64,000 nucleotides of DNA from a virus (IMGVR_UViG_3300042090_001530:1-64000), one strand, 5' to 3'; counted from the stretch's first letter, positions 2 to 32,177 are shown. Numbers and translations: made by a program. The notes: generated from the letters alone by a model not told the origin.

Positions 2-433
2 GCCGCCGGTCACGAGGTGGGCGACCTGTGGATTCAGCGGCACACCGACGCCCGGGACAAGGGCAAGCCGGGCGCCGAGGGCCGTCGGGCGTGCGCCACG
101 CACGTGGCGACGTACACCGCAACGCAGGCCGCCGCGCTCGCACTCGTCCAGGCCGCCACCGGTACACGGATCAGTGCCCGGCGGGCCGCGCTCGGCCTGG
201 CCGTCTCGGCGGCCACACACTACGCGGCCGACCGGCGTACCCCGCTGCGCCGCCTGGCCGAGGCGATGCAGCCCCGGTTCGGCAAGGCCGACTTCTACGC
301 GCTCGGCGCACCGCGCGAGGGCCACGACGACAACCCGACCCTTGGCACCGGCGCCTACGCCCTCGATCAAGCCTGGCACACCGCGACTAGCGTGTTCGCC
401 GCCGCCCTGATCATCGCCGGGGGTGCCCGATGA
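2..433 (+). CDS. DUF3307-like membrane protein of actinomycete plasmids/AICEs (5' partial)
   Basis: Frame is open from the window start (AAGHEVGDLWIQ). H-x-x-GD-x-x-x-Q start, THVATYT, SAATHYAADRR and DQAWH motifs match this family. Confidence 0.7.
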   Translation, partial: AAGHEVGDLWIQRHTDARDKGKPGAEGRRACATHVATYTATQAAALALVQAATGTRISARRAALGLAVSAATHYAADRRTPLRRLAEAMQPRFGKADFYALGAPREGHDDNPTLGTGAYALDQAWHTATSVFAAALIIAGGAR

Positions 434-726
434 ACGCCGACGCCACCGCCCAGCGCCCCATGCCCACCGCTGGCAAGTGGCGGCCCGCCGCGGCCCTCAA
501 GCAGGACTGGCAGATCCTCAAAACCAAGGACTACGAGGAGACCGGCGAGCAGCACTGGCTCACCATCACCCTCGCCATGCAGATCACCCGGCCGCTGCGG
601 GTCGCCTGGCTCACCTTCGACGACGGCACCCGCGCGAGCGTCCCGACCGACCCGGCCGAGGGCTACGAGTTCTTCACCCGCACCCCCGCCGAAGCCGAGC
701 GGGCCGCGAAGAAGACGAGGGCCTGA
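430..726 (+). CDS. hypothetical protein
   Basis: ATGA overlap with the upstream stop; GC3-rich codons. Confidence 0.7.
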   Translation: MNADATAQRPMPTAGKWRPAAALKQDWQILKTKDYEETGEQHWLTITLAMQITRPLRVAWLTFDDGTRASVPTDPAEGYEFFTRTPAEAERAAKKTRA

Positions 727-728
727 CG

Positions 729-884
729 ATGCTGCACATCCTCGCCATCGCGGCCAGCGCCTCGTTCGCCGTAGCCATCGCCATCGCGGCCGTTCACCAC
801 GTCGCACGCCGACACCTCGCCGCCCGCGGACGCGAAATGTACGTGCCGCACGACCGGGCCGACGACGACAGCGAAGGGGTCTGA
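729..884 (+). CDS. small membrane protein
   Basis: MLHILAIAASASFAVAIAIAAV hydrophobic segment; starts 2 nt after the previous stop. Confidence 0.6.
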   Translation: MLHILAIAASASFAVAIAIAAVHHVARRHLAARGREMYVPHDRADDDSEGV

Positions 885-886
885 CC

Positions 887-1114
887 ATGCGCCGACGCCG
901 CACCGCCTGGCAGGCCACCGCGTTCGCCACGGGCGCACTCACGATCACCGTCACGGCCGCCGTCCTCGACGCCCCGGCCCGGCTGCTGTTCATCGCGCTC
1001 GCCGCCATCGCGGTCGGCGGGATCGCCGCCACATGGGCGATCGAATGGCGCATCGCCGTCAACCAGCGGCGCATCCACCGGCAGCGCACCAACCGCACAG
1101 ACGAGGAGAACTGA
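887..1114 (+). CDS. small two-TM membrane protein
   Basis: Two hydrophobic segments and a basic tail; tight operon spacing. Confidence 0.65.
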   Translation: MRRRRTAWQATAFATGALTITVTAAVLDAPARLLFIALAAIAVGGIAATWAIEWRIAVNQRRIHRQRTNRTDEEN

Positions 1115-1115
1115 G

Positions 1116-1613
1116 ATGAGCGTCAGCATCACCCACCGCGAGACGGTGATCTTCTACGGGTACGTCTTCGACGCCGACACGTACTACGACCGCTACCCCG
1201 ACGCCACGGCAGCCATCAAAGCCATCCTCGCCGCAGCCGGCATGCCCGACCCGTACGACGCATTCCCCGAGGGCGCCGACTACGCCGACTGGGCCGACCG
1301 GCACGACACCGAGATCGAGGCGTACCTCGACGCCTGGACCAAGGCCGAAGCCGCGCTCCCCGTCGGCACCGGCACCCACGGCTCCAACGCCGTCCCCACC
1401 CCGTACCTGTACGTCGCCGGAACCCGCAGCGACACCCCGCGCGGCACCCCAAGGGCCAATCCGGCCATGAACCCGATCCACGTCGTCGGCCGCGACGTGG
1501 ACCCCGAGTGGAAGACCGTGCTCGACACGTTCCTCACCTCGCAGTCCATCACCCCGCCGACCGGGCCGAACCAGCCCAGCTGGTGGAGTGCCGCCTTCGA
1601 AGACAGGGACTGA
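1116..1613 (+). CDS. hypothetical protein
   Basis: GAGGAG RBS, tight coupling, typical codon usage. Confidence 0.75.
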   Translation: MSVSITHRETVIFYGYVFDADTYYDRYPDATAAIKAILAAAGMPDPYDAFPEGADYADWADRHDTEIEAYLDAWTKAEAALPVGTGTHGSNAVPTPYLYVAGTRSDTPRGTPRANPAMNPIHVVGRDVDPEWKTVLDTFLTSQSITPPTGPNQPSWWSAAFEDRD

Positions 1614-1616
1614 CAC

Positions 1617-1850
1617 ATGTCCAAGGAACTACTCGCGCAGGCCGCCACAGCCGTCATCAGGGCTCAGGGCGCATCCTCCGGCCTCCTCATGCACGAACTC
1701 GACACCGACTTCGACGTCGCGAGCCGACTCATCGACGAACTGCACCGCCTCGGCATCATCGCAGGCCCCAACGGCTCCCAGCGGCGCGAAGTCCTGTACC
1801 GGCCCGGCCAGCTCGACACGGCCATCAACAAGATCCAGAAGGAGAACTAA
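1617..1850 (+). CDS. stand-alone FtsK gamma (winged-helix) domain protein
   Basis: ASSGLLMHELDTDFDVASRLIDELHRLGIIAGPNGSQRREVL resembles the FtsK-gamma consensus AS.S.LQR.L.IGY.RA.RLID.LE..GIVGP..GS..REVL. Confidence 0.8.
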   Translation: MSKELLAQAATAVIRAQGASSGLLMHELDTDFDVASRLIDELHRLGIIAGPNGSQRREVLYRPGQLDTAINKIQKEN

Positions 1851-1852
1851 CC

Positions 1853-1990
1853 GTGCTCGCCGTCATCGCGCTCGTCGTGCTCTACGCCCTGTTCCACGGC
1901 CACCACTACCGCAAGCGGCGGCGGCACGGACTGTCCATCACCGCCAGCATCGCCGGCCCGTTCGGAACCCGCGTCAGCAAAAGGCTCTAA
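1853..1990 (+). CDS. small membrane protein (AICE-type)
   Basis: GTG after AAGGAG; N-terminal TM followed by basic HYRKRRRHGL...GPFG. Confidence 0.55.
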   Translation: MLAVIALVVLYALFHGHHYRKRRRHGLSITASIAGPFGTRVSKRL

Positions 1991-2041
1991 CCGACCGGCC
2001 GAAGCGAGCCGGCTATCAACCCCAGAAAGGACAGCAGCACC

Positions 2042-2479
2042 ATGACTGAGCAGGTCAGCAGCCCCATGCCCCTGATCCAGTACCGGACCGTCGGCGGCGC
2101 GATCGTGACCGTGACCGACGCGGGCCACCCGAGCGACGACTACCTGTCCACCGACCCGGCCGCAGCGCAGTGCGGCGGGTGCCTGGAGTCGCTCGTCCTG
2201 CACTCCAAGGTCACGGTCCACGACGCCCGCAGCTGGGCGACCGGCCACGCCCAGGAGTGCACCGCGCTGCCGCGGTTCGTGTCCGGCGGCGACGTGGACA
2301 ACGCGACGTGGACCGCGCTCGCCGAGGAGTACGCGGCCCGTGCGGTGCGGCTGCTTGAGGGCAAGCCGTCCACCGAGGACAGGCTCTCCACCGGTACCCG
2401 CGAGTCCCGCGACCCGCTCGGGTCCGCGCAGACCTACGCCGGCATCGCGGACGTGTACGCCCGGCTCGCCAGCCGCTGA
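2042..2479 (+). CDS. hypothetical Zn-binding protein of actinomycete mobile elements
   Basis: GAAAGGA RBS; CGGC...WATGHAQECTALP motif. Confidence 0.7.
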   Translation: MTEQVSSPMPLIQYRTVGGAIVTVTDAGHPSDDYLSTDPAAAQCGGCLESLVLHSKVTVHDARSWATGHAQECTALPRFVSGGDVDNATWTALAEEYAARAVRLLEGKPSTEDRLSTGTRESRDPLGSAQTYAGIADVYARLASR

Positions 2480-2638
2480 TCGAGCCGGGTGGGAACCGTC
2501 TGCTGCTCCGCTTCGAGACGGCGCCCGCCCAGCCCGGCCAACTGGCCGGACGTGCCGCGCCTGCCAACAGCCCCCACCCCGGGGGTGCTGGCGGAAGCGG
2601 TCGACCAACCGATACCAACCAGGAAAAGGAACCCCGCC

Positions 2639-2809
2639 ATGAAGAACCCGATCAGCAGGATCACCGACCGTCGCAGGCCGATGACTTTCGCCGAGCTCAA
2701 GGCCGCGGCCATCAAGCGCGGGGAGAAGGTCGGCCCCGACTGGGGCGCCACCAACGGCGCCACCCCCGCCACCGTCGGCTTCAACGCGCCGCGCGACAAG
2801 CAGCGCTGA
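2639..2809 (+). CDS. small hypothetical protein
   Basis: GGAAAAGGA RBS upstream of the ATG. Confidence 0.55.
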   Translation: MKNPISRITDRRRPMTFAELKAAAIKRGEKVGPDWGATNGATPATVGFNAPRDKQR

Positions 2810-2908
2810 CCGGACGGGCCACGCCCGCCGGCGGCCCCGAGCTCTCCCCGGGACCGCCGGCCCCCGCGGCCAACCGGCCGGAACCAAGCACCAACCACGA
2901 AAGGACAC

Positions 2909-2992
2909 ATGATGACCCGTCCCGAGATCGACAGCCGCCCGAGCAGCGACCAGTCCGCCCTGCGGCCGACCGCGCGCCCGGCCGGCAAGTAG
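2909..2992 (+). CDS. 27-aa peptide MMTRPEIDSRPSSDQSALRPTARPAGK
   Basis: Strong GAAAGGA RBS; below the ORF-track length cutoff. Confidence 0.35.
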   Translation: MMTRPEIDSRPSSDQSALRPTARPAGK

Positions 2993-3068
2993 CAGCAACC
3001 CCGCCGCCGCGGCAGCACGTCGCGGCGGCGGGACCCCAGACCCAAACCGCCGAAGGAGGCGAGCCCCA

Positions 3069-3362
3069 ATGCTTCTAGTCACCATCCTGCTGCTCGCGGC
3101 AGGAGCCCTGCTCGCCGCCCTCGGCACCGCCGGGTTCTACACCGTCGCCACCACCGCACCCGACCCCGACGACCTCGGGTTCACCAAGCACATGGCCACC
3201 ACCGGCCGCCGCCTCATCTACACCGGCCTGCCGATGCTCGCCGCCAGCCACATCGGGATCGCCGGACCCACGGCCAGCGTCCTCGCGGTCGTCGGATTCC
3301 TCGCCGCAGCCAGCTACCTCACCTCCGCGCCACTACGCGCCACGAACGGAGCGGCACGATGA
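3069..3362 (+). CDS. membrane protein (3 TM)
   Basis: AAGGAGG RBS; hydrophobic segments. Confidence 0.7.
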   Translation: MLLVTILLLAAGALLAALGTAGFYTVATTAPDPDDLGFTKHMATTGRRLIYTGLPMLAASHIGIAGPTASVLAVVGFLAAASYLTSAPLRATNGAAR

Positions 3363-4000
3363 ACCCCCGCGAGCAGGCCGAAGCAATCACCGACCTCACC
3401 GGCGTCCAGGACGGCGGCAAGACCACCGAAGCGTTCACCAGGTTCTTCCGCCGCGGATCGCAAGGCGGCTGGAACAGCCTCACCCAAGACGACTTCGCCA
3501 TGATCGAAGACGCGTTCGCCGACGGCACCGGCAAGCCCCGCCGCAAGCGCAAGCACCCCCTCGTCTGGAAGATCGGCTACTGGTGGCATTGGCACATCAC
3601 CTCGCCGATCATCTACCCGATCATCGAAGTGCCCTCCGCGATCAGCCGCAAGATCCACTGGCATGCGTGGAAGAAACGCCACGGCGGCAAGGTGCTCGTC
3701 CCCGAATGGCACGACGACGGCGAGGCCTACCTCGCGTTCCTGCCCTGGACCGAGCTCGACGCCCAGCGTCGCACGCTCACCGCCAACCTCCCGCTCCGCC
3801 ACCGCATCGCCTCCCGGCTCGGCCGACTCCACGCCGGCTGGGGCTGGTGCTGCCCCGAATGCGGCATCGACTTCGCCGAACCCGGCGACCTCGCGCCGTG
3901 CGACGTCAGGGCGTACGCGGAACTCGACGCGCACGTCGAAGAAGCCCACGGCGGGGCGATGCCCGAAGAAGCCGAAGCCATCCAGCTGTTCTGGATCTAG
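3359..4000 (+). CDS. hypothetical protein with C-terminal CPEC...H-x4-H Zn finger
   Basis: ATGA overlap; WCCPECG...LDAHVEEAH. Confidence 0.7.
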   Translation: MNPREQAEAITDLTGVQDGGKTTEAFTRFFRRGSQGGWNSLTQDDFAMIEDAFADGTGKPRRKRKHPLVWKIGYWWHWHITSPIIYPIIEVPSAISRKIHWHAWKKRHGGKVLVPEWHDDGEAYLAFLPWTELDAQRRTLTANLPLRHRIASRLGRLHAGWGWCCPECGIDFAEPGDLAPCDVRAYAELDAHVEEAHGGAMPEEAEAIQLFWI

Positions 4001-4062
4001 CAAGGCGAGACCGCAGCTGCACGGCCAACTGACTGCCACCCGAACCGAAGGAGAACCCGACC

Positions 4063-4212
4063 ATGGCGAGAGACGTCACCTGGACCTGCCCGAAGTGCGG
4101 GGTGACCAAGGGCGGATACAGCTTCCAGTGGACTGCTCGCGACGACGCTCAGCACCACCTGTGGAAGAAGCACGGCGTGGACGTGACCAGGAACAAGCGC
4201 TACTCGCGCTGA
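4063..4212 (+). CDS. 49-aa C2H2-type zinc-finger protein
   Basis: AAGGAG RBS; MARDVTWTCPKCGVTKGGYSFQWTARDDAQHHLWKKHGVDVTRNKRYSR. Confidence 0.65.
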   Translation: MARDVTWTCPKCGVTKGGYSFQWTARDDAQHHLWKKHGVDVTRNKRYSR

Positions 4213-4250
4213 GCGCGGCCGCCCCAGCCCGAATGAAGGAGACCAAGACC

Positions 4251-4448
4251 ATGGCATGGAAGACGAAGTCCGGACAGACCAGCAACCCAGGCCAGGACGC
4301 CGAGCGGCGCGGCACCGAACCGCGCACGGGAATCCTCAAGCCCGGCGACAACACCAAACCCGAAGTGCGCGCCGCTATGGACCGCGTCCGCGACACCGCG
4401 CAGTTCCTACGCGACGGCGACTGGCACTCGGCCTGGTACCGCGACTGA
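4251..4448 (+). CDS. hypothetical protein
   Basis: AAGGAG RBS; 65 aa. Confidence 0.6.
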   Translation: MAWKTKSGQTSNPGQDAERRGTEPRTGILKPGDNTKPEVRAAMDRVRDTAQFLRDGDWHSAWYRD

Positions 4449-4460
4449 CCCCACGAGCCC

Positions 4461-4493
4461 CGCCCGCCGGGATGAGGCAGGGCCCGGCGGGCG
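4461..4493. terminator. GC-rich hairpin, possible terminator
   Basis: CGCCCGCCGGG / CCCGGCGGGCG 11-bp stem just after the stop at 4448; no U-tract. Confidence 0.4.
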
Positions 4494-4738
4494 GCACGGA
4501 GACAGATCCAGCTGACTCCGACCCGGCCCGGACAGTGATTCCAGCACTGCCCGGGCCGGACCAACAACAAAACTGAAGCACCATCAAACGCACAAAGAAC
4601 ACTGACACAGCAACAAAACCCAATACCCACAACCCGGGGTAGTGTGTGTGAAAACAGAAAAGCGGCCCCAGCAAGGCGATTCCAGCGCCAAGCCAGGGCC
4701 TGACCACACACCGCTATCTCCTTGGCAGGGAGCGACAA

Positions 4739-5821
4739 GTGGCTACGACGAAGGATAACCGCGCCCCGAAGAAGGGGCGAGCACGAGACGACAACGAGCA
4801 GCCAGTCAGCGCGCCCGCAGACGTCCACGCCGTCCTACGGCACGGCGGCACCGCGGCCCTCGTCTGCGCCGCCGCGAGCTCGGCCGTGTCCCTGTTCTGG
4901 CTCGCCATCCTTGTCGGATGGCCTCCCGCACTCGCATGGCTGCTGCCCGCGTCCCTCGATGTGTACGCCGGCACGAGCCTCTACGTCGGCTACCGGCTCC
5001 CCGGCGCGCATCCCGCCGCGAACACCGCGCGCCGTAACGCCCGCTTCGCCCTCTCCCTCTCGGTCGCCTGCAACGGGATCTACCACGCGCTCGTGCTCTT
5101 CGGCGCCGAATGGCCCTACTGGGTGCACGACTCGCTCCTCGTCGCGGTCTCCGCACTGCCGCCGGTCGTCGTCGAGCGGCTCCTCCACCTCCGCTCGAAG
5201 ATCGGCAACGGGCACGCGGCGGCATCCGACACCGTTGCCGCCCCGGCGCCAAAGGCTGCCGCCGGGACCGACAACACCCCGGCCGTCGTCAAGGAGACCG
5301 GCAAGCCTCCGCTTGACCGGCAATCGTCCACCGAGGCGGACATCGACAACCCGGCAACCGGCAACCCCGAGGATCCGACAACCCGGATCGGCAACCCGGC
5401 GACCCAGACCGGCAAGCCTCCCGTCAACGACAACCCGTCCGACCGTCAGGCCCAGACCGGCAACCCGTCCGATCGTCAAAAGCCGGCCGTCAAGCAGCCC
5501 GCTGCCGGTCAGCCGTCAACCGACACCTGGGTCGAGATCGGCAAGCCGCTCTACGACCGGCTGCGCATCGAACTCGGCAAGCGGCCCGGGGAAACCAAGT
5601 TCCACGCCTACCTCTCCGAGTGCGTCGCCGAACTGATCGAAGACGGCGTTCCCGTCGGCGCGAACAAGGACGAGAGCCCCGAGGTGTACGCGAACCCGTC
5701 CCTGTCCACGGCCAAGCGCATCCGCAAGGAGATCGAGGACCGATTTCCCGGAATCGTCTTCGGCCACGCCCAAGACGCCGCCGAGGGGCAGCTCGACCTG
5801 ACCGAGGAGGCGGCCTCGTGA
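4739..5821 (+). CDS. DUF2637 / SpdA-like membrane protein of conjugative actinomycete elements
   Basis: LFWLAILVGWPPALAWLLPASLDVYA motif, 4 TM segments, low-complexity linker; overlaps the traB start. Confidence 0.7.
   Translation: MATTKDNRAPKKGRARDDNEQPVSAPADVHAVLRHGGTAALVCAAASSAVSLFWLAILVGWPPALAWLLPASLDVYAGTSLYVGYRLPGAHPAANTARRNARFALSLSVACNGIYHALVLFGAEWPYWVHDSLLVAVSALPPVVVERLLHLRSKIGNGHAAASDTVAAPAPKAAAGTDNTPAVVKETGKPPLDRQSSTEADIDNPATGNPEDPTTRIGNPATQTGKPPVNDNPSDRQAQTGNPSDRQKPAVKQPAAGQPSTDTWVEIGKPLYDRLRIELGKRPGETKFHAYLSECVAELIEDGVPVGANKDESPEVYANPSLSTAKRIRKEIEDRFPGIVFGHAQDAAEGQLDLTEEAAS
5286..5580 (+). repeat. cluster of about 17 direct repeats YCGNCAA (ACCGGCAA x5), candidate clt/TRS locus
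   Basis: Copies at 5286, 5298, 5317, 5343, 5351, 5358, 5375, 5388, 5409, 5421, 5457, 5473, 5487, 5513, 5538 and 5574, plus a CCGTCAG variant at 5443. They fall in all three reading frames. Confidence 0.6.
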
Positions 5822-7983
5822 CCATCGTCCAGGGACATGTGATCCAACCCGGCGGAAACGAAGATCCCTCCGCCCCGGGGCAGATCATGCCTTCCCGCAG
5901 CTACGTTGCAAGTGAGCACTTGCAGGTCATCCACGGGCTGCTCCCGGCCCCCGCCTCGCCGCTCCAGGAGTGGCCAGGCCGCGCCCGCCTGGCCGAACGC
6001 GCCGTCGTGGGCATGATCCACGGCGTCCTGGCGTACAAGGCCGTCGCGCTCGTGCCGCTCGCCGTGGCCGCGACCGAGATCATGGCCTCGGTGATCCACA
6101 TGGCGCCGCATCACATGTTGGCCGGCGGCCTCATGTGCACCGTCGGGGTCGGCGCGTCCGCCCTTGCCGGGATCATGTCGCTCGCGCACGTCTCGAACAC
6201 CCCGGCTCCGCACCACGCCGCGACGCACCACGCCGGACACTCCGGGAAGATCATCGGGACGGCGTTCGGGATCGCCCTGGCCCTGTTCGAAGTCGGCACC
6301 ACCATCTGGCTCGGCCCCCTCTCGGCCCTGTCGTGGGGCGCCGGGATGCTCGCCACCATCGGCGGCAGCATCGGCCTCGGCGTCGCCATCCACCACCACC
6401 GCGGCCACACCCAGATCCGCGACACCGACCGGATCCGGGCCGTCGCCGAATTCGCGGCGTCAACCGCCATCGAACCGGCAAGCCACATGCCCCCGACGGC
6501 AACCCAGTACGACCAGCACCCGCTGTCGACGGAAGTGATCTACGCGTTGTCGGTTGTCGGCTGGCCCGGCGCGACCATCGACGCCATGCCGGTCGTCGTC
6601 AACCCCAACCGGTGGACGGTCACCGCCAACCTCCCCGAAGGCGTCGCGTTCAAGACCGTCAAGGCGAAGGAGGTCGAGCTCGCCGCGACCATGCGGATCG
6701 TCGCCGGAGGCTTGACGCTCACCCAGGGCCGCGGCAGCCACCAGGTCGTGTTCTCCGTCAACAACCTCGCGATCGCGGAACTCGCGAAGCCCGGCCCCCA
6801 CCCGGCCGTCGAAGCTCCGGGCCGGTCCGTCTCCATCTGGGACCCGGTCGACTTCGGGCTCGACGACGACGATGACGACGTCGGCATCGTGCTCGCCGGC
6901 ACCCCTGGCATCCTGATCGCAGGCGACCCGGGCAGCGGCAAGTCGAACGCCGTCGCGCACGCCCTGTGCCACGTCGTGCAGGCGGTCGACTGCAGGCTCA
7001 TCACCATTGACGGCTCCGGCCGCGAACTGGTGATCTTCAACGAGGTGGCCGACCAGCACACCACCACCGACATGGACGCCGCCATCGCGATCCTCGACTG
7101 GCTGCAAACCGAGATCACCCGCCGCGGCGCACTCCTCGCCGAACAGCGCGCCACGGAACTCACCCGCGAACTCGCCGAAGACCTCGAACTCGACTGCATC
7201 TGCTACGCCATCGGCGAACTCGCCTACTTCACCAACTACGACGACAGCAAGAAGAAGACCACGTTCAATCTGAAACTGCGCGACATCACCTCACGGGGCC
7301 GCGCCGCCGGAATCTTCGGCGTATTCGACACTCAGAAACCGGAAGACCGAACAGTGCCCTCGGCGATTCGCGACATGGTGCCGTTCAAGCTGGCATTGCG
7401 CTGCGAGACGGCCGACGCGGTCAACACGATCCTCGGCAAGGGTATGGCGAAGCAATACCCGGCGCACGAGCTGGACGCGGGAGCCAAGGGAGTCGGGTAC
7501 CTCAAGGGCGTCCCGGGACGCAAGCCGTTCCGGCTGCGCACGCGCCGGATCGAGCCGGCGGAACGCTACGCGATCGTCGACTCGGCCAAGGTCGGCTTCG
7601 TCGCGCCGCCGCCGATCGTGCCCGGCCCCGGCGGGGGACAGGCGGACTACGACGACGGGCCCGCGCCGGGCACCGGGGCCCCGGCGCTGCGCCTGGTGAA
7701 GGGCGGACTCTACCCCGACGGCACCAAGTTCGAGAACGAGACGTTCTCCGCCGTCTGGAGCCTGCTCGATCGGCTCCCGGAGGGTTTCACCTACCGGGAT
7801 GTCGGCGTGCTCGCCCCGTCGGTCGGCCTGTTCGGCGGGCGCAGCACCGTGCAGACGCAGCTCGACGCCTGGCGCGATCAGGGCCGGATCGTGGCGATCG
7901 GCGAGCGACGCGGCCCGGCCGGGCCGCCCACCGCCGTCTATCAGCGCTCCGACCGGGCCGGGCGCGGCGAGGTGACCGCCTGA
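5818..7983 (+). CDS. traB: TraB-like FtsK/SpoIIIE DNA translocase
   Basis: GTG overlaps the upstream stop. N-terminal TMs, Walker A GDPGSGKS, ELAYF, RGRAAGI...TQKP, and a C-terminal wHTH-like tail. Confidence 0.85.
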   Translation: MTIVQGHVIQPGGNEDPSAPGQIMPSRSYVASEHLQVIHGLLPAPASPLQEWPGRARLAERAVVGMIHGVLAYKAVALVPLAVAATEIMASVIHMAPHHMLAGGLMCTVGVGASALAGIMSLAHVSNTPAPHHAATHHAGHSGKIIGTAFGIALALFEVGTTIWLGPLSALSWGAGMLATIGGSIGLGVAIHHHRGHTQIRDTDRIRAVAEFAASTAIEPASHMPPTATQYDQHPLSTEVIYALSVVGWPGATIDAMPVVVNPNRWTVTANLPEGVAFKTVKAKEVELAATMRIVAGGLTLTQGRGSHQVVFSVNNLAIAELAKPGPHPAVEAPGRSVSIWDPVDFGLDDDDDDVGIVLAGTPGILIAGDPGSGKSNAVAHALCHVVQAVDCRLITIDGSGRELVIFNEVADQHTTTDMDAAIAILDWLQTEITRRGALLAEQRATELTRELAEDLELDCICYAIGELAYFTNYDDSKKKTTFNLKLRDITSRGRAAGIFGVFDTQKPEDRTVPSAIRDMVPFKLALRCETADAVNTILGKGMAKQYPAHELDAGAKGVGYLKGVPGRKPFRLRTRRIEPAERYAIVDSAKVGFVAPPPIVPGPGGGQADYDDGPAPGTGAPALRLVKGGLYPDGTKFENETFSAVWSLLDRLPEGFTYRDVGVLAPSVGLFGGRSTVQTQLDAWRDQGRIVAIGERRGPAGPPTAVYQRSDRAGRGEVTA

Positions 7984-8423
7984 TGGCGCGCAGGAAGCGC
8001 GGCTACCTGGCCTCGGAAGCGCGGAAGGCTGCCCGCGCGATGAGGCCAGACCGCGTTTTTCTTCGCTTCTGGACCGGGGGCAAGTATCAGACGTTCGGGG
8101 GCCTCGTGCGCGGGGCGCTCGGCGCAAGCCGGCAGCAGGTTCCGATGCGTGCAGTGCCACCCGGCTCGCCGGTTCCGAAGACAGCGGGGGCAGCGAAGCG
8201 CGCGCGTGCCGTTGCGGCGAAGACGGCGTCCGCGAGCAAGCAGACCACCAAGCAGCCGGTCATCAAGAAGACCGCGCGCGGCAAGCAGGTCGCCAAGCGC
8301 AAGGGCAAAGGCCAGTTCGACGGGTCCGTCGTGCTGCCGGGCGCCGACCTGACGCTGTACCGGCGCGCGGTGGACGGCAACGCGATCGTCCAGCCGGGCG
8401 AACCCGGGCGGAGGCGGATTTGA
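7983..8423 (+). CDS. basic Lys/Ala/Arg-rich protein
   Basis: Coupled to the traB stop; highly basic composition. Confidence 0.6.
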   Translation: MARRKRGYLASEARKAARAMRPDRVFLRFWTGGKYQTFGGLVRGALGASRQQVPMRAVPPGSPVPKTAGAAKRARAVAAKTASASKQTTKQPVIKKTARGKQVAKRKGKGQFDGSVVLPGADLTLYRRAVDGNAIVQPGEPGRRRI

Positions 8424-8857
8424 TTACCGGTGGACGCAGCGACGGGCTTGCGCTCGGCACGCTCATCCCAACCAGTTCGGGACTGACGCCCTTGGGGCAG
8501 CTCCGCGTCGGCGACAGCGTCTTCGACGAAAACGGGCAACCCTGCACGGTCGTTGGAGCGGGTCGCTCGACCGGAGACCGTGCGTGCTACGAGATCGAGT
8601 TCAGCGGCGGCTCGACTTTCATCGTCGGCGCCGATCAGCCGTGGATCGTCGATACTCGCAAGTCGCGCATGTATCGACTTGAACAGACGCGTCGTGCGGC
8701 GACCGTGGGCCCACTGGGCAAGCGTCGGTACGGCGCCGCACTGCCGCCGGCGCGGCTCGCGCCCGAGCGACGTGCGGCACTCGCCGAACTCGGTATGACG
8801 TGGCCGCCGTCGGTGACCGACCTGGAGTTCACGGCGCCTGTCGCCCCGGCCGACTAG
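8420..8857 (+). CDS. orphan intein-like Hint N-terminal fragment, apparently inactive
   Basis: GLALGTLIPTSSGLTPLGQLRVGDSVFDENGQPCTV...CYEIEFSGGSTFIVGADQPW resembles blocks A/B of DnaB-type inteins. Confidence 0.65.
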   Translation: MITGGRSDGLALGTLIPTSSGLTPLGQLRVGDSVFDENGQPCTVVGAGRSTGDRACYEIEFSGGSTFIVGADQPWIVDTRKSRMYRLEQTRRAATVGPLGKRRYGAALPPARLAPERRAALAELGMTWPPSVTDLEFTAPVAPAD

Positions 8858-9028
8858 TCCGCGTGGTGCGCAGCCCGGGGGGCGCATTCGTCAACGACTT
8901 GCGCGCCGGGGTCCGTAGCCCCAAACTCGGGCTAGAAGATCACGCCCGCCCCGATCACCAGTCGAGGCGGGCTACACGGATCGAATCGGCTCCCCCCAAT
9001 GCTAGAACGCACCAACGGGAGCTGACGC

Positions 9029-10270
9029 ATGCCGCGAGATCACCGGAACGCACGGCCCTACTGGCCGCACTCCCAGCCCGAGCCCATCCACGAAGCCGAC
9101 ATCCCCGATGCGCCCGTCTGTCCCGGGAAATGCAACGCGGCCTGGCGCGCCGCCGAAGAACGCGTCCGGCTCCACGGCGGCGAACACGACCTCGAGCCCG
9201 AACCCGGCGCGCCCGTCTGGTGCCCGCCGTGCCAAACCGAGATCCGCGGCGCCCTCGACGACTGGCCCGACCTCGCCGTGCGCCTCGCCGAAGAGATCGG
9301 ATCCGGCGTCAGGACCCGCATCGGCGAATACGTGTCCGGGTCCAAAACGCGGCCCATCCACGAGCACGAAGCGCCCAGCCTCCTGCTCGACGAGATGGCC
9401 GAATGGCTGCCGGAATGGGGCGCGACCATCGCCAGAGAGCGCGGGCTGCCGGAGCGCCCCGGCCGGCGCCCGGGCGCGGACCCCATCGCGCAGATCACCG
9501 ACGCCTGCCGGTTCCTGACCATCCACCTCACTTGGCACCTGGGCGAACGTCCCGCCGACGAGCACGAACGCGCCGAAGACTTCGGCCGCGAACTGCTCGC
9601 CGCCACCCGCCGCGCCCGCACCATCACCGGCACCCAGGAGTCCGAGCCCATCCGCGTCATCGGCGTCGCCTGCCCGCACTGCGACCGCAAGGCGCTCGAA
9701 TACGAGATCGAAGACAGCCCCACCCGTAAAGCCGCCGTCAAGCGGTATCGGTACGACGGCGACGACGTGGCCAACGAACCGCAAACCATCGGCCCCGACG
9801 AGGCACGACGCCTGCGCCTGCCCCGACACTTCGAGACCGCGCTACGCCAGCGCATGCAACTCGGCCCCGACCCGGCCGGCTGGAAACTCCTCGCCGACTG
9901 CGACACCCACGACCTACGAGCCCTCGACGGCCACCCCGGCATCGACAGTCGGCTCACCGACCGCCTCGACGAGTATCAGGCCGAGCGCGTCCGCGACCTG
10001 CCCGCCGCGGTCCTCGACGACCTGTTCGCCGGGCCGTACGGCATCCCCGGCAAGGCGGTCGAGACCATCACCGTGAACGTGCAAGGCTCCGTCGTCGGCT
10101 ACGTCCGCTGCCGCCGCTGCAGGCCCCTGTTCCGCATGAACCTCGACGAATACCACAAGTGGACGCGCATGCTCGCCGCCGGCGACGAAGTACGCGCCAA
10201 GGCCACCGCCGAGAAACTGCGCGAAGTGTTCGGCAACTCCGTCCCCGTGCAGTACCGAGTCAAGAAGTGA
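9029..10270 (+). CDS. phage protein with several CxxC Zn-binding motifs (possible late regulator)
   Basis: CPGKC, WCPPC, CPHCDRKAL and CRRC motifs; GGGAG RBS. Confidence 0.7.
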   Translation: MPRDHRNARPYWPHSQPEPIHEADIPDAPVCPGKCNAAWRAAEERVRLHGGEHDLEPEPGAPVWCPPCQTEIRGALDDWPDLAVRLAEEIGSGVRTRIGEYVSGSKTRPIHEHEAPSLLLDEMAEWLPEWGATIARERGLPERPGRRPGADPIAQITDACRFLTIHLTWHLGERPADEHERAEDFGRELLAATRRARTITGTQESEPIRVIGVACPHCDRKALEYEIEDSPTRKAAVKRYRYDGDDVANEPQTIGPDEARRLRLPRHFETALRQRMQLGPDPAGWKLLADCDTHDLRALDGHPGIDSRLTDRLDEYQAERVRDLPAAVLDDLFAGPYGIPGKAVETITVNVQGSVVGYVRCRRCRPLFRMNLDEYHKWTRMLAAGDEVRAKATAEKLREVFGNSVPVQYRVKK

Positions 10271-10558: not shown

Positions 10559-10672
10559 GGCCGGGGATAAGTGCGCCCGCAGGCGCCGTCCGGATGAGAA
10601 TTGCCGAACCCCGTGGGGATCGGAAGTAGGCTCGCCTCGGTTCCGGCCGGACCTGGCTGAGCTTGCGGCTTT

Positions 10673-10699
10673 GAGAACCCCGCCCACCGCGGGGTTCTC
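10673..10699. terminator. hairpin upstream of the tRNA
   Basis: GAGAACCCCGC-CCACC-GCGGGGTTCTC perfect 11-bp stem. Confidence 0.45.
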
Positions 10700-10710
10700 G
10701 GCTTTCTGGT

Positions 10711-10782
10711 GCCGTGTTAACTCAGCGGTAGAGTGCCGCCTTCGTAAGGCGGAAGTCCAGGGTCCGATCCCCTGACGCGGCT
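10711..10782 (+). tRNA. tRNA-Thr(CGT) with variant T-loop and no encoded CCA
   Basis: Cloverleaf: acceptor GCCGTGT/ACGCGGC, D-arm ACTC/GAGT, anticodon arm CCGCC-TTCGTAA-GGCGG, T-arm CAGGG-TCCGATC-CCCTG. Confidence 0.8.
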
Positions 10783-10872
10783 CGAAGCACTGACGTACCC
10801 TGGGCGTGTCGGCGGAGACGAGGGTAGCGAACTGTTCCGTGGATCATCAGTAAACATCAGCTTCCATAGGCA

Positions 10873-10878
10873 TATACT
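10873..10878 (+). promoter_or_regulatory. putative -10 box for leaderless tnpA
   Basis: TATACT 6 nt before the GTG start; no RBS. Confidence 0.45.
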
Positions 10879-10884
10879 GACCCT

Positions 10885-11454
10885 GTGAAGCTTTCGGAGT
10901 GGGCGCGGCGGGAGGGTGTGCACTACCAGACCGCGTGGGAGTGGGCCCGGGACGGGAAAATGCCTGTGCCGACCTACCGCACCCCGTCTGGGACCTGGAT
11001 GGTACGCGCCGAACCCGAACGGCCTACGGGCCGAGTTGTCGCCTACTGCCGGGTCTCCTCGCAGGATCAGAAGCCCGACCTCGAACGCCAGGCCGGGCGC
11101 GTGGTCGCGGGCGCAACATCCCAGGGTTTCGCAGTGGCGGAGGTCGTCACCGAGATCGGATCCGGCCTCAACGGCAAGCGCCGGAAACTACATCGGCTGC
11201 TCGCCGACCCGGACGCTACGGTGATCGTGGTCGAGCATCGCGACCGGCTCGCCCGGTTCGGCGTCGAGCACCTCGAGGCCGCGCTCGCCGCGACCGGCCG
11301 CAGGCTCGTGATCCTCGACCCGGAGGAGACCGCCGACGATCTCGTGCGGGACATGACCGAGATCCTCACCTCGATGTGCGCGCGCCTCTACGGGCGCCGC
11401 TCCGCGAAGAACCGCGCGGCACGCGGCATGGCCGCGATGGCAGCCGACCAGTGA
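10885..11454 (+). CDS. tnpA: IS607 transposase (MerR-HTH + serine recombinase)
   Basis: MKLSEWARREGVHYQTAWEW HTH; YCRVSSQDQ catalytic motif; EIGSGLNGKR; VEHRDRLARFG. Confidence 0.93.
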   Translation: MKLSEWARREGVHYQTAWEWARDGKMPVPTYRTPSGTWMVRAEPERPTGRVVAYCRVSSQDQKPDLERQAGRVVAGATSQGFAVAEVVTEIGSGLNGKRRKLHRLLADPDATVIVVEHRDRLARFGVEHLEAALAATGRRLVILDPEETADDLVRDMTEILTSMCARLYGRRSAKNRAARGMAAMAADQ

Positions 11455-12836
11455 CCGTACAGGCGTTCAAGTTCGCCCTGGACCCGACGCCGTCTCAGGC
11501 CCGGGATCTGCTGCGGCACGCCGGCGCCGCGCGGGTCGCGTTCAACTGGGGTCTCGCGCAGGTCAAGGCGAACCTCTCGCAGCGCGAGGCCGAACGCTCC
11601 TACGGCATCGACGGCGACGACCTGACGCCGTCCCTGAGCTGGTCGATGTATTCGCTGCGCAAGGCCTGGAACCAGGCCAAGGATGATGTTGCGCCGTGGT
11701 GGGCCGAATGCTCGAAAGAGGCGTACGCGGCCGGGCTGAACCACCTGGCCGCGGCACTGAAGAACTGGTCGGACTCAAAGAAGGGCAAGCGCGCCGGGCG
11801 CCCGATGGGCTTCCCCAGGTTCAAGTCCCGGCGCCGCGCGACACCGTCGGTGAAGTTCACCACCGGCGCGATCCGCGTCGAGCCCGATCGCAAGCACGTC
11901 ACACTGCCCGTCCTGGGCACGATCAAGACGCACGAGTCGACGCGGAAACTGTCGCGGAAGATCGAGGCGGGTGCGGCGCGGATCCTGTCCGCGACGGTCC
12001 GGTTCGAGCGGGGCCGCTGGTTCGTCGCGTTCACCGTCGAGGCCGTGCGCAAGGAAGTCGCACCACGCCGACCCGGCGCCGTGGTCGGCGTGGACCTGGG
12101 CATCAAGACGCTCGCGGTCCTGTCCGAGGGCGAGCCGGTCCCGAACCCGCGGCACTTCGACGCCGCGCGCCGGAAACTCGCGCGCACTTCGCGCACCGTG
12201 TCCCGCCGTCAAGGCCCGGACCGGCGTACCGGGCGGCAGCCGTCGAACCGGTGGAAGCGTGCGAACGCGGCCCGCAACAAGGTGCACCACCAGGTGGCGG
12301 CGCAGCGCCGTGACGGCCTGCACAAGCTGACGACGCGCCTGGCGAAGCATTACGGCACGATCGTGATCGAAGACCTCAACGTCGCCGGGATGGTGCGGAA
12401 CAAGAAGCTCGCCCGGCTGATCTCGGATGCCGGGTTCGGCGAGTTCCGGCGGCAGCTCGCCTACAAGACCGAGTGGTACGGCGCCCGGCTGGTGGTTGCC
12501 GACCGCTGGTACCCCAGCAGCAAGACGTGTTCGGGCTGTAAGACAGTGAAACCCAAGCTGTCCCTAGCCGAGCGCGTGTTTACCTGTGAGGCGTGCGGCC
12601 TGGTCATCGACCGGGACCTGAACGCTGCTCTGAATCTGCGCGACCTTGTCGCGCACGTCGCCGGGAGTGGCCCGGAGACGTTAAACGGACGCCGAGCCGA
12701 CCGTGAGACCAGGCCTCGCCTGGCAGGTGGCGCAACCCCGCGACAGCGGACAGAAACGTCAATCTTGCGCCCGGCAGCAGTCGGGGTCAGACAGGAACCT
12801 TCGCCCCTCACGGGGCGGATCCTTGAGATTCACTGA
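11451..12836 (+). CDS. tnpB: TnpB RNA-guided nuclease
   Basis: AFKFALDPTPSQ HTH; RuvC motifs GVDLG, IEDL and DRDLNAA; CSGC/CEAC Zn finger. Confidence 0.92.
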   Translation: MTVQAFKFALDPTPSQARDLLRHAGAARVAFNWGLAQVKANLSQREAERSYGIDGDDLTPSLSWSMYSLRKAWNQAKDDVAPWWAECSKEAYAAGLNHLAAALKNWSDSKKGKRAGRPMGFPRFKSRRRATPSVKFTTGAIRVEPDRKHVTLPVLGTIKTHESTRKLSRKIEAGAARILSATVRFERGRWFVAFTVEAVRKEVAPRRPGAVVGVDLGIKTLAVLSEGEPVPNPRHFDAARRKLARTSRTVSRRQGPDRRTGRQPSNRWKRANAARNKVHHQVAAQRRDGLHKLTTRLAKHYGTIVIEDLNVAGMVRNKKLARLISDAGFGEFRRQLAYKTEWYGARLVVADRWYPSSKTCSGCKTVKPKLSLAERVFTCEACGLVIDRDLNAALNLRDLVAHVAGSGPETLNGRRADRETRPRLAGGATPRQRTETSILRPAAVGVRQEPSPLTGRILEIH

Positions 12837-12941
12837 AACTCAGGGAACGGCGCCCCTGTCGTACACGCTGTGGACCACGGACACGACGTCGGCCCCGCGC
12901 GGCGAGGAGCCGCCGGACACCGCGGTTCCGGCACGGGTCTG

Positions 12942-13130: not shown

Positions 13131-13152
13131 GCCCGCGGCCGGGGGCGAGCCG

Positions 13153-32165: not shown

Positions 32166-32177
32166 GGGGGCGCCCCG

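What the first reader, a model, noticed from the sequence alone, without database searches (positions are those of the whole stretch)
2..8423. AICE/plasmid-type TraB conjugation module within a complete tailed-phage genome
Seen: DUF3307-like, FtsK-gamma, DUF2637/Spd-like and TraB genes run co-directionally into a phage late region and full morphogenesis operon, with no visible att site or element boundary. Known: Streptomyces TraB alone mediates dsDNA transfer of plasmids and AICEs. Inference: this may be a phage-conjugative hybrid that spreads both as virions and hypha-to-hypha by TraB.
Basis: partly seen in the sequence, partly recalled or inferred. Interest (0 to 1): 0.8.

Follow-up and report, generated by a model that had tools for sequence, protein, structure and literature searches.

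The report
Plasmid-type DNA pump cassette in actinophage
A 202-kb temperate tailed phage of a high-GC soil or wetland actinomycete carries, as part of its own genome, the kind of membrane DNA pump and partner protein that Streptomyces plasmids use to push double-stranded DNA between hyphae. It may therefore also spread without virus particles, an untested idea that has a published precedent (plasmid-phage pZL12).

Summary
Window 1-8.4 kb encodes a free-standing FtsK-gamma protein, a DUF2637-class membrane protein and a 721-aa TraB-like translocase. All run co-directionally into the terminase, portal and tail genes.

There is no element boundary:
- An independent assembly joins the contig's two ends seamlessly, giving a circular map of 202,488 bp with no host flanks.
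- The record has one integrase, about 60 kb away.
- No att-type repeats flank the region.
- Related phage contigs keep the same gene order from a DnaB/GntR control region, through the cassette, into the pre-terminase genes.
- An unrelated, complete 57.6-kb phage carries the same gene pair between its terminase and portal genes.

This is therefore not an AICE lying beside a prophage. It is a phage-borne cassette laid out as in pSVH1 and pFP11 (GntR ... DUF2637/SpdB2-position protein, then TraB). The pump has four N-terminal hydrophobic helices, an FtsK-fold motor (31% identical to pSVH1 TraB) and a C-terminal winged helix. A clt-like array of short direct repeats lies just upstream.

Virion-free DNA spread is plausible (about 0.4) but untested. 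FtsK-like genes in actinophages and the conjugative plasmid-phage pZL12 are already published. This scan has at least 21 earlier findings of this kind, in at least 21 genomes. Verdict: new member of a known kind.

The parts
2..433 (+). 3' part of a 181-aa membrane-protein gene that begins about 110 bp before the contig's end and runs across the end/start junction
   Evidence: phrog_2470 membrane protein, E 4e-12. The full-length gene is seen in bridging contig L023 at 8773-9318. DUF3307 is sub-threshold only (E 0.22).
1617..1850 (+). Free-standing FtsK-gamma winged-helix protein (77 aa)
   Evidence: Pfam FtsK_gamma, E 2.7e-11, above cut-off. No homologue turned up in relatives L001, L004, L005 or L011. 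No detectable similarity to the pump's own C-terminal domain.
3359..4000 (+). 213-aa protein of unknown function, conserved upstream of the cassette
   Evidence: 46% identical over 243 aa to an L001 ORF in the syntenic position. No family hit.
4739..5821 (+). DUF2637-class (SpdB2-position) membrane protein, 360 aa. It has an N-terminal hydrophobic domain, a disordered repeat-rich linker and a conserved C-terminal domain.
   Evidence: Orthologues hit PF10935 (72 and 28.7 bits); the window's own copy scores 15.2 bits. Alignment A2. It overlaps the start of the pump gene by 4 nt. It occupies the same position as the DUF2637/SpdB2 gene in pSVH1, pFP11 and NZ_CP130726.
5286..5580 (+). clt-like array of short direct repeats (YCGNCAA; core ACCGGCAA) inside the linker-coding part of the upstream gene
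   Evidence: 16 copies in 295 bp against 0.32 expected. This is the densest cluster in the 202-kb record, the next having 4 copies. The copies fall in all three reading frames. Orthologues carry arrays at the same place with other motifs, above synonymous-codon resampling in 4 of 7 loci. The same scan recovers the repeat cluster next to pSVH1 traB.
5818..7983 (+). TraB-like FtsK/SpoIIIE dsDNA translocase, 721 aa. About four hydrophobic helices (61-192), motor (about 235-600), winged helix (641-710).
   Evidence: BLASTP against pSVH1 TraB: 31% over 372 aa, E 6e-32. AF2 model and Foldseek: FtsK motor 2IUT/6T8B, E 1e-18. The C-terminal domain model's top matches are all winged-helix DNA binders. 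Hydropathy and motifs.
7983..8423 (+). 146-aa protein, translationally coupled to the pump gene and conserved in most relatives
   Evidence: Homologues directly downstream of the pump gene in L001 (154 aa), L003 (158 aa) and L005 (145 aa). No family or Atlas lead.
9029..10270 (+). 413-aa protein linking the cassette to the pre-late genes
   Evidence: Collinear homologues in L001 and L005 downstream of the cassette. No family hit.
10671..10701 (+). Terminator-like hairpin with a 13-bp stem that closes the rightward unit
10711..12836 (+). tRNA-Thr(CGT) plus TnpB: an insertion private to this genome, not an element border
   Evidence: ARAGORN. Pfam OrfB_IS605, Cas12f1-like_TNB and HTH_OrfB_IS605. 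Absent between the flanking homologues in L001 and L005. No duplicated tRNA fragment.
30513..35996 (+). Large terminase and portal fusion: start of the morphogenesis block that the cassette runs into
   Evidence: terL is 58% identical to that of Streptomyces phage TurkishDelight. Phage_portal plus NUDIX. Tail tube and tape measure further on.

Best explanation
The region is part of the early (right-arm) gene set of a complete, temperate, 202.5-kb siphovirus-type actinophage.

It holds a three-gene cassette: a DUF2637/SpdB2-class membrane protein, a membrane-anchored TraB-like FtsK-fold DNA pump with a C-terminal winged helix, and a coupled protein of about 150 aa. A lineage-specific array of short direct repeats lies just upstream of the pump gene. 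The cassette lies downstream of a DnaB | GntR - HTH_17 control region, and the overall order matches Streptomyces plasmid transfer loci (GntR ... DUF2637/SpdB2, TraB).

Shown here:
- The cassette is integral to the phage genome.
- It is conserved in related phages and recurs in an unrelated one.
- It has the three-part TraB architecture.

Inferred: pump hexamers dock on the repeat array through the winged helix and translocate unprocessed double-stranded phage DNA (episomal or replicating) across septal cross-walls or into neighbouring hyphae, with the DUF2637 protein forming the envelope pore. This would give the phage a virion-independent route of spread.

My odds: integral phage cassette of plasmid type, about 0.9; its function is cell-to-cell or compartment-to-compartment DNA transfer, about 0.4.
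For: The genome is closed and has no flanks:
- The ENA contig behind L023 (195,798 bp) matches G000 193,604-202,490 and 1-2,799 at 100% with a 2-bp overlap.
- A 23-kb contig from the source sample also runs past position 1.
- CheckV completeness is 98%. There is one integrase and one FtsK-family gene.

Synteny:
- L001 (111.7-kb contig) is collinear from the GntR gene, across the junction, through the cassette to window 20.6 kb. L005 is collinear to about 15.0 kb.
- L011 (63-kb IMG/VR record with a portal) keeps the GntR-to-pump order.
- L001 and L005 skip the tRNA/TnpB insertion.
- In G002 (57.6 kb, CheckV 100%) the gene pair sits between terL and portal.

Likeness to plasmid systems:
- pSVH1 TraB: 31% over 372 aa, E 6e-32. 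Bit scores to pSVH1-type TraBs (105-121) exceed those to phage FtsK-likes (65-69) and to true FtsK (59-62).
- pSVH1, pFP11 and NZ_CP130726 have a GntR gene, small ORFs, a DUF2637/SpdB2 protein and TraB in that order.
- The SpdB2-position proteins reach PF10935: pFP11 35.2 bits, NZ_CP130726 23.6 bits. The latter is 55% identical to pSVH1 SpdB2.

Architecture: four hydrophobic helices, an FtsK motor fold and a winged helix.

Repeat arrays: with pSVH1 as positive control.

Published function of such parts: only the traB deletion strongly reduces pSVH1 transfer; SpdB2 forms pores and is needed for spreading; TraB C-termini recognise clt, which consists of 8-bp direct repeats (PMC4447253).

Precedent: the pZL12 record has the same layout, and its transfer needs a major tra gene and adjacent genes (PMC3583192).
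Against: - There is no experimental evidence of transfer, and the host is unknown.
- The protein is far below the NCBIfam plasmid_TraB equivalog cut-off (52 bits against 800). In the tree it forms its own clade, not nested in pSVH1-type TraB.
- The Walker B aspartate is glycine in this protein and in 15 of 18 family members, so ATPase competence is not assured.
- The upstream protein shows no direct similarity to SpdB2 by BLASTP or hhalign.
- The window's own exact 7- and 8-mer repeats only modestly exceed synonymous resampling (31-64 of 1000). Repeats in a low-complexity coding linker can arise without any DNA-level function.
- I saw no clear co-variation between the winged-helix residues and the repeat motif.
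- The GntR gene is co-directional and about 15 kb upstream, not divergent and adjacent as in the plasmids.
- The four genomes holding phage contigs with related terL genes show no copy of the cassette, so it is accessory.
Confidence: 0.5

Rival explanations
1. The cassette serves the phage inside the infected or lysogenic cell rather than moving DNA to other cells. For example, it could segregate phage or prophage DNA into spore or hyphal compartments, aid replication or resolution, or interfere with host FtsK-dependent division and sporulation. The free-standing FtsK-gamma protein could compete at host recognition sites.
For: FtsK-like genes are common in Streptomyces phages. Authors relate them to replication or to host development (PMC11536984; PMC13587820; bioRxiv 10.1101/2024.02.16.580700). 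PHROGs files the family under 'moron, auxiliary metabolic gene and host takeover'. A separate FtsK_gamma protein lies nearby. The cassette sits among early genes next to the replication helicases.
Against: The pairing with a DUF2637/SpdB2-class membrane protein, the plasmid-like gene order and the repeat array are features of transfer and spread loci, not of chromosome segregation. Sequence scores are higher to plasmid TraB than to true FtsK. The gamma protein is absent from relatives that keep the cassette.
Confidence: 0.27
2. The cassette is an exclusion or kil-type function. It would act against incoming plasmids, AICEs or phages, or be toxic unless repressed. It would not transport the phage's own DNA.
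For: traB-traR pairs of plasmids form Kil-Kor systems, and unregulated traB is toxic (PMC4447253). There are weak PADLOC hits through the shared ATPase domain (SspH, mad8, about 36 bits). In G002 the cassette behaves like a mobile accessory gene set on the opposite strand.
Against: The PADLOC hits are much weaker than the TraB match, and no partner genes of those defence systems are present. The conserved winged helix and the repeat array on the phage's own DNA argue for recognition of self DNA.
Confidence: 0.1
3. Two separate elements lie side by side: an AICE or plasmid transfer module inserted next to a prophage, with a boundary near the tRNA-Thr at 10.7 kb.
For: A tRNA gene, a usual AICE target, and a transposon-type gene lie between the cassette and the late genes. 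GntR, a NUDIX domain and an FtsK-like gene all occur in the record.
Against: The molecule closes on itself without flanks. It has one integrase only, 60 kb away. There are no duplicated tRNA fragments or direct repeats. Relatives L001 and L005 are collinear across this point and simply lack the tRNA/TnpB. L011 carries a portal on the same record as the cassette, and G002 has the pair between terL and portal.
Confidence: 0.03
4. The pump is a decaying or ATPase-dead relic that no longer translocates DNA.
For: Walker B reads hhhhGE instead of hhhhDE.
Against: The glycine is shared by 15 of 18 members that are otherwise 44-79% identical. Walker A Lys/Ser, the catalytic Glu467, the Q-K-P sensor motif (TQKP in most members) and many other residues are invariant or nearly so. 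The reading frame is intact. The gene is retained in several phage lineages.
Confidence: 0.05

Closest known systems
TraR-SpdB2-TraB transfer and spread locus of Streptomyces plasmid pSVH1 (also pFP11 and related small plasmids)
   Same: The motor is homologous (31% over 372 aa, E 6e-32). The pump has the same three parts: membrane N-terminus, FtsK-type motor and C-terminal winged helix. A DUF2637-class membrane protein lies directly upstream. A GntR/UTRA regulator heads the unit. A cluster of short direct repeats lies beside the pump gene.
   Different: The phage protein forms a separate clade and fails the TraB equivalog cut-off. Walker B has Gly for Asp. The upstream protein shows no direct similarity to SpdB2. 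The repeats lie upstream, inside a coding linker, rather than just downstream of traB. The GntR gene is co-directional and about 15 kb away. The carrier is a 202-kb phage with an integrase, not a small plasmid.
Streptomyces plasmid-phage pZL12 / phiZL12 (GQ919031; Zhong et al. 2010, J Bacteriol 192:3747, known here through PMC3583192 and PMC4487206)
   Same: One replicon carries virion genes, a GntR regulator, small ORFs, a membrane protein and an FtsK-like tra gene that run co-directionally into phage structural genes. Conjugal transfer depending on the tra gene and its neighbours is reported.
   Different: pZL12.71c is only distantly related (28% over 171 aa). pZL12.73c does not hit DUF2637. 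pZL12 has ParA/ParB partitioning genes (PMC4487206), whereas this phage has no ParA or ParB but an integrase and a closed circular map. Sizes are 90 kb and 202 kb.
'FtsK-like DNA translocase' genes of isolated actinophages (phrog_1358; Streptomyces phage Gilgamesh gp10; cluster J mycobacteriophages such as LittleE gp198)
   Same: A phage-borne FtsK/SpoIIIE-family ATPase among early genes. The best profile hit of this protein is phrog_1358 (E 1.7e-37). Function is unknown in all of them.
   Different: Sequence likeness is low (28-30% over the motor only). LittleE gp198 is a 442-aa protein next to the RDF and repressor genes. No DUF2637 gene is annotated beside either gene. In 1.84 billion representative proteins, only three 50%-identity clusters cover all or nearly all of the length.
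AICEs (pSAM2, SLP1, pMEA300; PMC2440964)
   Same: An FtsK-like transfer gene, a GntR regulator and Spd-type membrane proteins. The carrier also integrates through a tyrosine integrase.
   Different: There is no compact unit of roughly 10-20 kb with its own int/xis, rep and att borders. The integrase and attP serve the whole 202-kb phage.
Chromosomal FtsK/SpoIIIE
   Same: Motor fold (Foldseek 2IUT, 2IUS, 6T8B at E 1e-17 to 1e-18), a membrane anchor of about four helices, and a DNA-reading winged helix at the C-terminus.
   Different: There are no FtsK_alpha or FtsK_gamma Pfam hits in the pump itself. Scores to true FtsK are lower (59-62 bits). The gene is phage-borne and paired with a DUF2637 protein.

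Membership tests
Streptomyces plasmid transfer protein TraB (NCBIfam NF041214; pSVH1 type) | Scores above the curated equivalog cut-off | tested here: not met
   52.4 bits against a cut-off of 800. It forms its own clade in the motor tree.
Streptomyces plasmid transfer protein TraB (NCBIfam NF041214; pSVH1 type) | FtsK/SpoIIIE-type motor homologous to TraB | tested here: met
   31% over 372 aa, E 6e-32, against pSVH1 TraB. Foldseek finds the FtsK motor at E 1e-18. Walker A is intact.
Streptomyces plasmid transfer protein TraB (NCBIfam NF041214; pSVH1 type) | Canonical Walker B (hhhhDE) for ATP hydrolysis | tested here: inconclusive
   It reads hhhhGE here and in 15 of 18 relatives. The catalytic Glu is invariant. 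Activity was not measurable with these tools.
Streptomyces plasmid transfer protein TraB (NCBIfam NF041214; pSVH1 type) | N-terminal membrane association and a C-terminal winged-helix clt-recognition domain | tested here: met
   Four hydrophobic helices at 61-192. The C-terminal domain model has pLDDT 82, and its top 50 Foldseek matches are winged-helix DNA binders, TM 0.5-0.6. These are predictions only.
Streptomyces plasmid transfer protein TraB (NCBIfam NF041214; pSVH1 type) | Cognate clt: a cluster of about 8-bp direct repeats near traB that TraB binds | tested here: inconclusive
   A repeat cluster exists at 5286-5580 and at the same place in orthologues. The control scan recovers the pSVH1 cluster. 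Binding was not tested.
Streptomyces plasmid transfer protein TraB (NCBIfam NF041214; pSVH1 type) | Mediates conjugal dsDNA transfer | not testable with these tools
   Needs mating assays.
SpdB2 / DUF2637 (PF10935) spread proteins | Pfam PF10935 above the gathering score | tested here: inconclusive
   The window's copy scores 15.2 bits, below 22.8. Orthologues pass: L001 72.1 bits, L003 28.7 bits. Plasmid SpdB2-position proteins score 23.6 and 35.2 bits.
SpdB2 / DUF2637 (PF10935) spread proteins | Direct sequence or profile similarity to pSVH1 SpdB2 | tested here: not met
   BLASTP and hhalign give no significant match.
SpdB2 / DUF2637 (PF10935) spread proteins | Gene placed directly upstream of the TraB-type gene | tested here: met
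   There is a 4-nt overlap with the pump gene. The position matches pFP11 and NZ_CP130726.
AICE (actinomycete integrative and conjugative element) | A compact unit with its own integrase/excisionase and att repeats at its borders | tested here: not met
   There is a single integrase, at about 66.6 kb. No repeats or tRNA duplication. The molecule closes without flanks. Relatives are collinear across the supposed border.
AICE (actinomycete integrative and conjugative element) | Its own replication gene beside the transfer genes | tested here: inconclusive
   DnaB-type helicases lie divergent from the GntR gene. However, this arrangement is conserved as part of the phage backbone in relatives.
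Plasmid-phage of the pZL12 kind | Virion genes and an FtsK-like tra locus with a GntR regulator on one replicon | tested here: met
.
Plasmid-phage of the pZL12 kind | Plasmid partitioning genes (ParA/ParB), as pZL12 has | tested here: not met
   There are no ParB_N or AAA_31 matches in the record. An integrase is present instead.
Actinophage FtsK/SpoIIIE-like proteins (phrog_1358) | Significant match to the PHROG profile, encoded in a phage genome | tested here: met
   E 1.7e-37, 129.6 bits. G000 is an IMG/VR virus record with CheckV completeness 98%.

The most novel reading that the evidence does not exclude
A family of temperate actinophages uses a TraB/SpdB2-type pump as a 'movement' system. 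The pump would load on a lineage-specific repeat array hidden in the disordered-linker coding region of the upstream membrane-protein gene. It would then drive unpackaged phage dsDNA across hyphal cross-walls or into neighbouring mycelium. Infection or lysogeny would thus spread without virions, and past receptor-based resistance.
Probability: 0.3. Interest if true: 0.7.

Novelty: new member of a known kind. Interest (0 to 1): 0.42.

Why it matters
If the cassette works as its plasmid relatives do, this phage has two routes of spread, virions and direct DNA pumping between hyphal compartments or cells. That would blur the line between phage and conjugative element in mycelial bacteria. It would also allow spread into hosts that lack the phage receptor.

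What this case adds:
- A closed 202-kb genome.
- Proof from synteny that the module belongs to the phage.
- A second, unrelated phage carrying the same gene pair.
- A candidate loading site.

Together these make the idea directly testable. The concept itself is not new (pZL12), and FtsK-like genes in actinophages are well known, so the value lies in a well-defined test case rather than a new kind of system.

Tried and rejected
- AICE border: I searched for duplicated tRNA-Thr pieces and for direct repeats of 15 bp or more between 7.9-13.3 kb and the whole record. Only chance-level matches appeared.
- Terminal repeats: the contig has no direct or inverted terminal repeats. Closure was shown through another assembly instead.
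- Close relatives in 185,579 species genomes: none found with the family patterns.
- The four genomes holding terL relatives (MAGs labelled Frankiales, Catenulispora and Actinomycetota, plus Streptomyces fuscigenes) show no copy of the cassette. They give only a weak hint of a filamentous actinomycete host.
- A 245-kb Streptomyces linear plasmid with a 57%-identical terL holds only a lone terL remnant among IS elements.
- Direct SpdB2 similarity: none by BLASTP or hhalign.
- Likeness between the free gamma protein and the pump's winged helix: none.
- The 146-aa partner: no Pfam, PHROG, NCBIfam, PADLOC or Atlas lead.
- Defence-system membership: only weak hits through the ATPase domain.
- ParA/ParB: none.
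- RNA evidence: no RNA holder is listed for the stretch. The runs laid were contigs only, so nothing can be said about expression or virion content.
- The pZL12 primary paper and Vogelmann et al. 2011 are not held. What I say about them rests on citing papers. The pSVH1 repeat motif GACCCGGA rests on my own knowledge plus my scan.
- No complex prediction was run.

Full report
WHAT THE RECORD IS

The window is the first 64 kb of a single 202,490-bp contig with 68.6% G+C. The tools identify it as an IMG/VR virus record, CheckV completeness 98%, classed 'linear' because it has no end repeats. I found no direct or inverted terminal repeats.

A 195,798-bp contig from an independent ENA assembly bridges the two ends. 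Locus L023 matches G000 193,604-202,490 and then 1-2,799, both at 100% identity, with a 2-bp overlap. A 23-kb contig from the source sample also runs 20 kb past window position 1. The map is therefore a closed circle of 202,488 bp with no host flanks. The first ORF of the window is the 3' part of a 181-aa gene that spans the junction.

The record has:
- one tyrosine integrase, at about 66.6 kb, on the minus strand;
- one FtsK-family gene;
- no ParA or ParB;
- a single tRNA.

Within the window, terL (30513-32165) is 58% identical to that of Streptomyces phage TurkishDelight and 57% to that of Actinoplanes phage phiAsp2. A portal fused to NUDIX, a tail tube, a tape measure and beta-helix fibre proteins follow. 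'Complete tailed-phage genome' is correct, although the genome is 202 kb, not 64 kb.

THE GENES OF THE FINDING

I called genes by third-position G+C bias and then ran Pfam, PHROGs and NCBIfam.

- 2-433: membrane protein (phrog_2470).
- 1617-1850: a 77-aa protein that is nothing but an FtsK_gamma domain (E 2.7e-11).
- 4739-5821: a 360-aa protein. Its N-terminal hydrophobic domain scores 15.2 bits on DUF2637, below the cut-off of 22.8. Its orthologues score 72.1 bits (L001) and 28.7 bits (L003).
- 5818-7983: a 721-aa FtsK/SpoIIIE protein, P0001. It overlaps the upstream gene by 4 nt.
- 7983-8423: a coupled 146-aa protein with no family.
- Further on: an ORF with a Hint-domain fragment, a 413-aa protein, a strong hairpin terminator at 10671-10701, tRNA-Thr, and a TnpB gene.

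IS THERE A BOUNDARY?

Neither there nor anywhere between 7.9 and 13.3 kb is there a direct repeat beyond chance (19 bp or less in a 202-kb, 69% G+C sequence). No piece of the tRNA is duplicated.

Stronger evidence comes from relatives. The pump protein has 18 homologues of 44-79% identity, all from metagenomes. I fetched their contigs and compared them with the record.

- L001, from a 111.7-kb contig, is collinear with G000 from 190.7 kb, through the GntR gene at 196.1 kb, across the contig junction, through the cassette, and on to the papain-like and beta-helix genes at 20.6 kb. L005 follows the same order as far as about 15.0 kb.
- Both pass from window 10.5 kb to about 13.9-14.4 kb without the tRNA or the TnpB. 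These are therefore an insertion private to this genome.
- L011, a 63-kb IMG/VR record whose portal I confirmed, keeps the order from the GntR gene to the pump gene.
- In G002, a 57.6-kb IMG/VR record rated 100% complete, the same gene pair (34% and 55-61% identical) sits on the opposite strand between the terminase and portal genes of a different kind of phage.

The cassette is thus phage property in at least two backbones. The juxtaposed-AICE reading can be set aside.

HOW PLASMID-LIKE IS IT?

Across the junction, the unit is headed by a DnaB-type helicase on the minus strand. Divergent from it are a GntR/UTRA regulator (contig 196105-196854) and an HTH_17 protein. Small ORFs and a mobile RRXRR-HNH gene follow.

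In pSVH1 the order is GntR (TraR), two small ORFs, SpdB2, orf108, TraB. pFP11 and NZ_CP130726 have the same order, with the SpdB2-position protein annotated as DUF2637. I confirmed those labels at 35.2 and 23.6 bits. The NZ_CP130726 protein is 55% identical to pSVH1 SpdB2.

P0001 aligns with pSVH1 TraB at 31% over 372 residues (E 6e-32). On one scale, its bit scores are:
- 105-132 to Streptomyces plasmid proteins;
- 65-69 to Gilgamesh gp10 and LittleE gp198;
- 59-62 to true FtsK.

In the tree it forms its own well-supported clade. It is weakly joined (80/78) to a Gilgamesh/plasmid pair and is separate both from pSVH1-type TraB and from FtsK. It fails the NCBIfam TraB equivalog by a wide margin (52 bits against 800). 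Its best profile hit is the phage family phrog_1358. A profile search of 1.84 billion representatives finds only three 50%-identity clusters that match over all or nearly all of the length, then a steep drop to motor-only matches.

STRUCTURE OF THE PUMP

The AlphaFold model (18-sequence alignment, mean pLDDT 69.5) shows long helices at 58-215, a motor at about 235-600, and a helix-helix-helix-strand-strand unit at 641-710.

- Hydropathy gives four hydrophobic segments between residues 61 and 192.
- Foldseek places the motor on the FtsK motors of P. aeruginosa and E. coli, including the DNA-bound form (E 1e-17 to 1e-18). The conjugation coupling protein TcpA comes next.
- Modelled alone, the C-terminal domain reaches pLDDT 82. 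All its leading matches are winged-helix DNA-binding domains (TM about 0.55-0.6, E about 5e-3).

This is the three-part layout described for TraB (PMC4447253).

One oddity: the Walker B motif reads hhhhGE here and in 15 of 18 relatives, and hhhhDE in the other three. The Walker A Gly-Lys-Ser, Glu467 and the Q-K-P core of the sensor motif are invariant.

A CANDIDATE LOADING SITE

The linker-coding part of the upstream gene (5286-5580) holds 16 copies of YCGNCAA against 0.32 expected. It is by far the densest cluster in the record. The copies fall in all three reading frames.

Every orthologue has its own short repeat at the same place: CCGGCAAC, ACCGTCCA, CGCTCGC, CGGCCACC and others, with 5-9 copies. 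In four of seven loci the copy number exceeds all, or all but one, of 1000 synonymous-codon resamplings. For the window itself the exact-word test is weaker (31-64 of 1000). The same scan on pSVH1 picks out four to five copies of GACCCGGA just downstream of traB. From my own knowledge, that is the clt of this plasmid.

This matches the published rule that clt regions are direct 8-bp repeats recognised by the cognate TraB (PMC4447253). Binding is untested. Repeats in low-complexity coding DNA can have other causes. I saw no clear co-variation with the winged helix.

MOST LIKELY MECHANISM AND RIVALS

Shown: a phage-integral cassette with the parts list and order of a plasmid transfer and spread locus.

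Inferred (about 0.4): the pump loads on the array and moves unpackaged phage dsDNA across septa or into neighbouring hyphae, helped by the DUF2637 protein.

Rivals:
- an intracellular segregation, replication or host-development role, as authors have suggested for phage FtsK-like genes, about 0.27;
- an exclusion or kil-type role, about 0.1; PADLOC gives only weak ATPase-domain hits;
- a dead relic, about 0.05;
- two juxtaposed elements, about 0.03.

The host is unknown. terL relatives lie in MAGs labelled Frankiales, Catenulispora and Actinomycetota, and in Streptomyces fuscigenes. This fits a filamentous actinomycete but is weak evidence. Those genomes show no copy of the cassette.

COMPARISON WITH WHAT IS KNOWN

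FtsK-like genes are repeatedly noted in Streptomyces phages (bioRxiv 10.1101/2024.02.16.580700; PMC11536984; PMC13587820).

The plasmid-phage pZL12 (GQ919031, 'Streptomyces phage ZL12') has a GntR gene, small ORFs, a membrane protein, a 766-aa protein and an FtsK-like gene that run co-directionally into phage structural genes. Its conjugal transfer is reported to need the major tra gene and its neighbours (PMC3583192). pZL12.71c is only distantly related to P0001 (28% over 171 aa). pZL12 has ParA/ParB partitioning genes (PMC4487206), which this phage lacks.

The scan's own notes hold at least 21 earlier findings of such modules in at least 21 genomes. Their follow-ups reached the same reading. 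I treat these notes as leads, not as support.

VERDICT

This is a new member of a known kind. Its useful particulars are a closed 202-kb genome, a rare TraB-like subfamily, a second unrelated carrier phage and a testable loading site.

Noticed in passing
window 8420-8857: A 145-aa ORF coupled to the cassette begins with the N-terminal block of a Hint/intein domain (Pfam Hint_2, E 0.0034, below cut-off). There is no recognisable extein or C-terminal splicing block.
   Followed up: no
window 10671-13704: A strong hairpin terminator, tRNA-Thr(CGT), a 645-aa TnpB and two small ORFs form an insertion of about 3 kb. It is absent from the collinear relatives L001 and L005.
   Followed up: partly
window 5818-7983 (residues 462-468 of P0001): The Walker B motif of this TraB-like family is hhhhGE in 15 of 18 members and hhhhDE in three. 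The rest of the active site is conserved.
   Followed up: partly
L007 (NZ_CP107934.1, 125-kb circular 'plasmid' of Streptomyces zaomyceticus): It carries a tyrosine integrase, many small ORFs and an FtsK-like protein that groups with gp10 of the 129-kb Streptomyces phage Gilgamesh. It may be a Gilgamesh-like phage kept or assembled as a plasmid.
   Followed up: no
L002 / L010 (IMG/VR record G002, 57.6 kb): The DUF2637-like plus FtsK-like pair lies on the opposite strand between the terminase and portal genes of an HK97-type phage, within a stretch of about 8 kb of small ORFs. This is an unusual place for accessory genes.
   Followed up: partly
contig 198273-199955 (L008 15274-16956); L011 6810-7313: Homing-type endonuclease genes interrupt the operon. 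An RRXRR-HNH gene lies between the GntR gene and the cassette in this genome. An HNH-AP2 gene lies between the DUF2637-like and pump genes in L011.
   Followed up: no
window 9248-9598: Contigs of the source sample break here, and two 351-bp variants differing at 35 positions coexist. This is a microdiversity spot inside the 413-aa gene.
   Followed up: no
L022 (NZ_CP107900.1, 245-kb linear Streptomyces plasmid): A lone terL homologue, 57% identical to this phage's, sits among IS elements, FxsT genes and a type I-E CRISPR-Cas locus. No other phage genes are annotated within 20 kb on either side.
   Followed up: no
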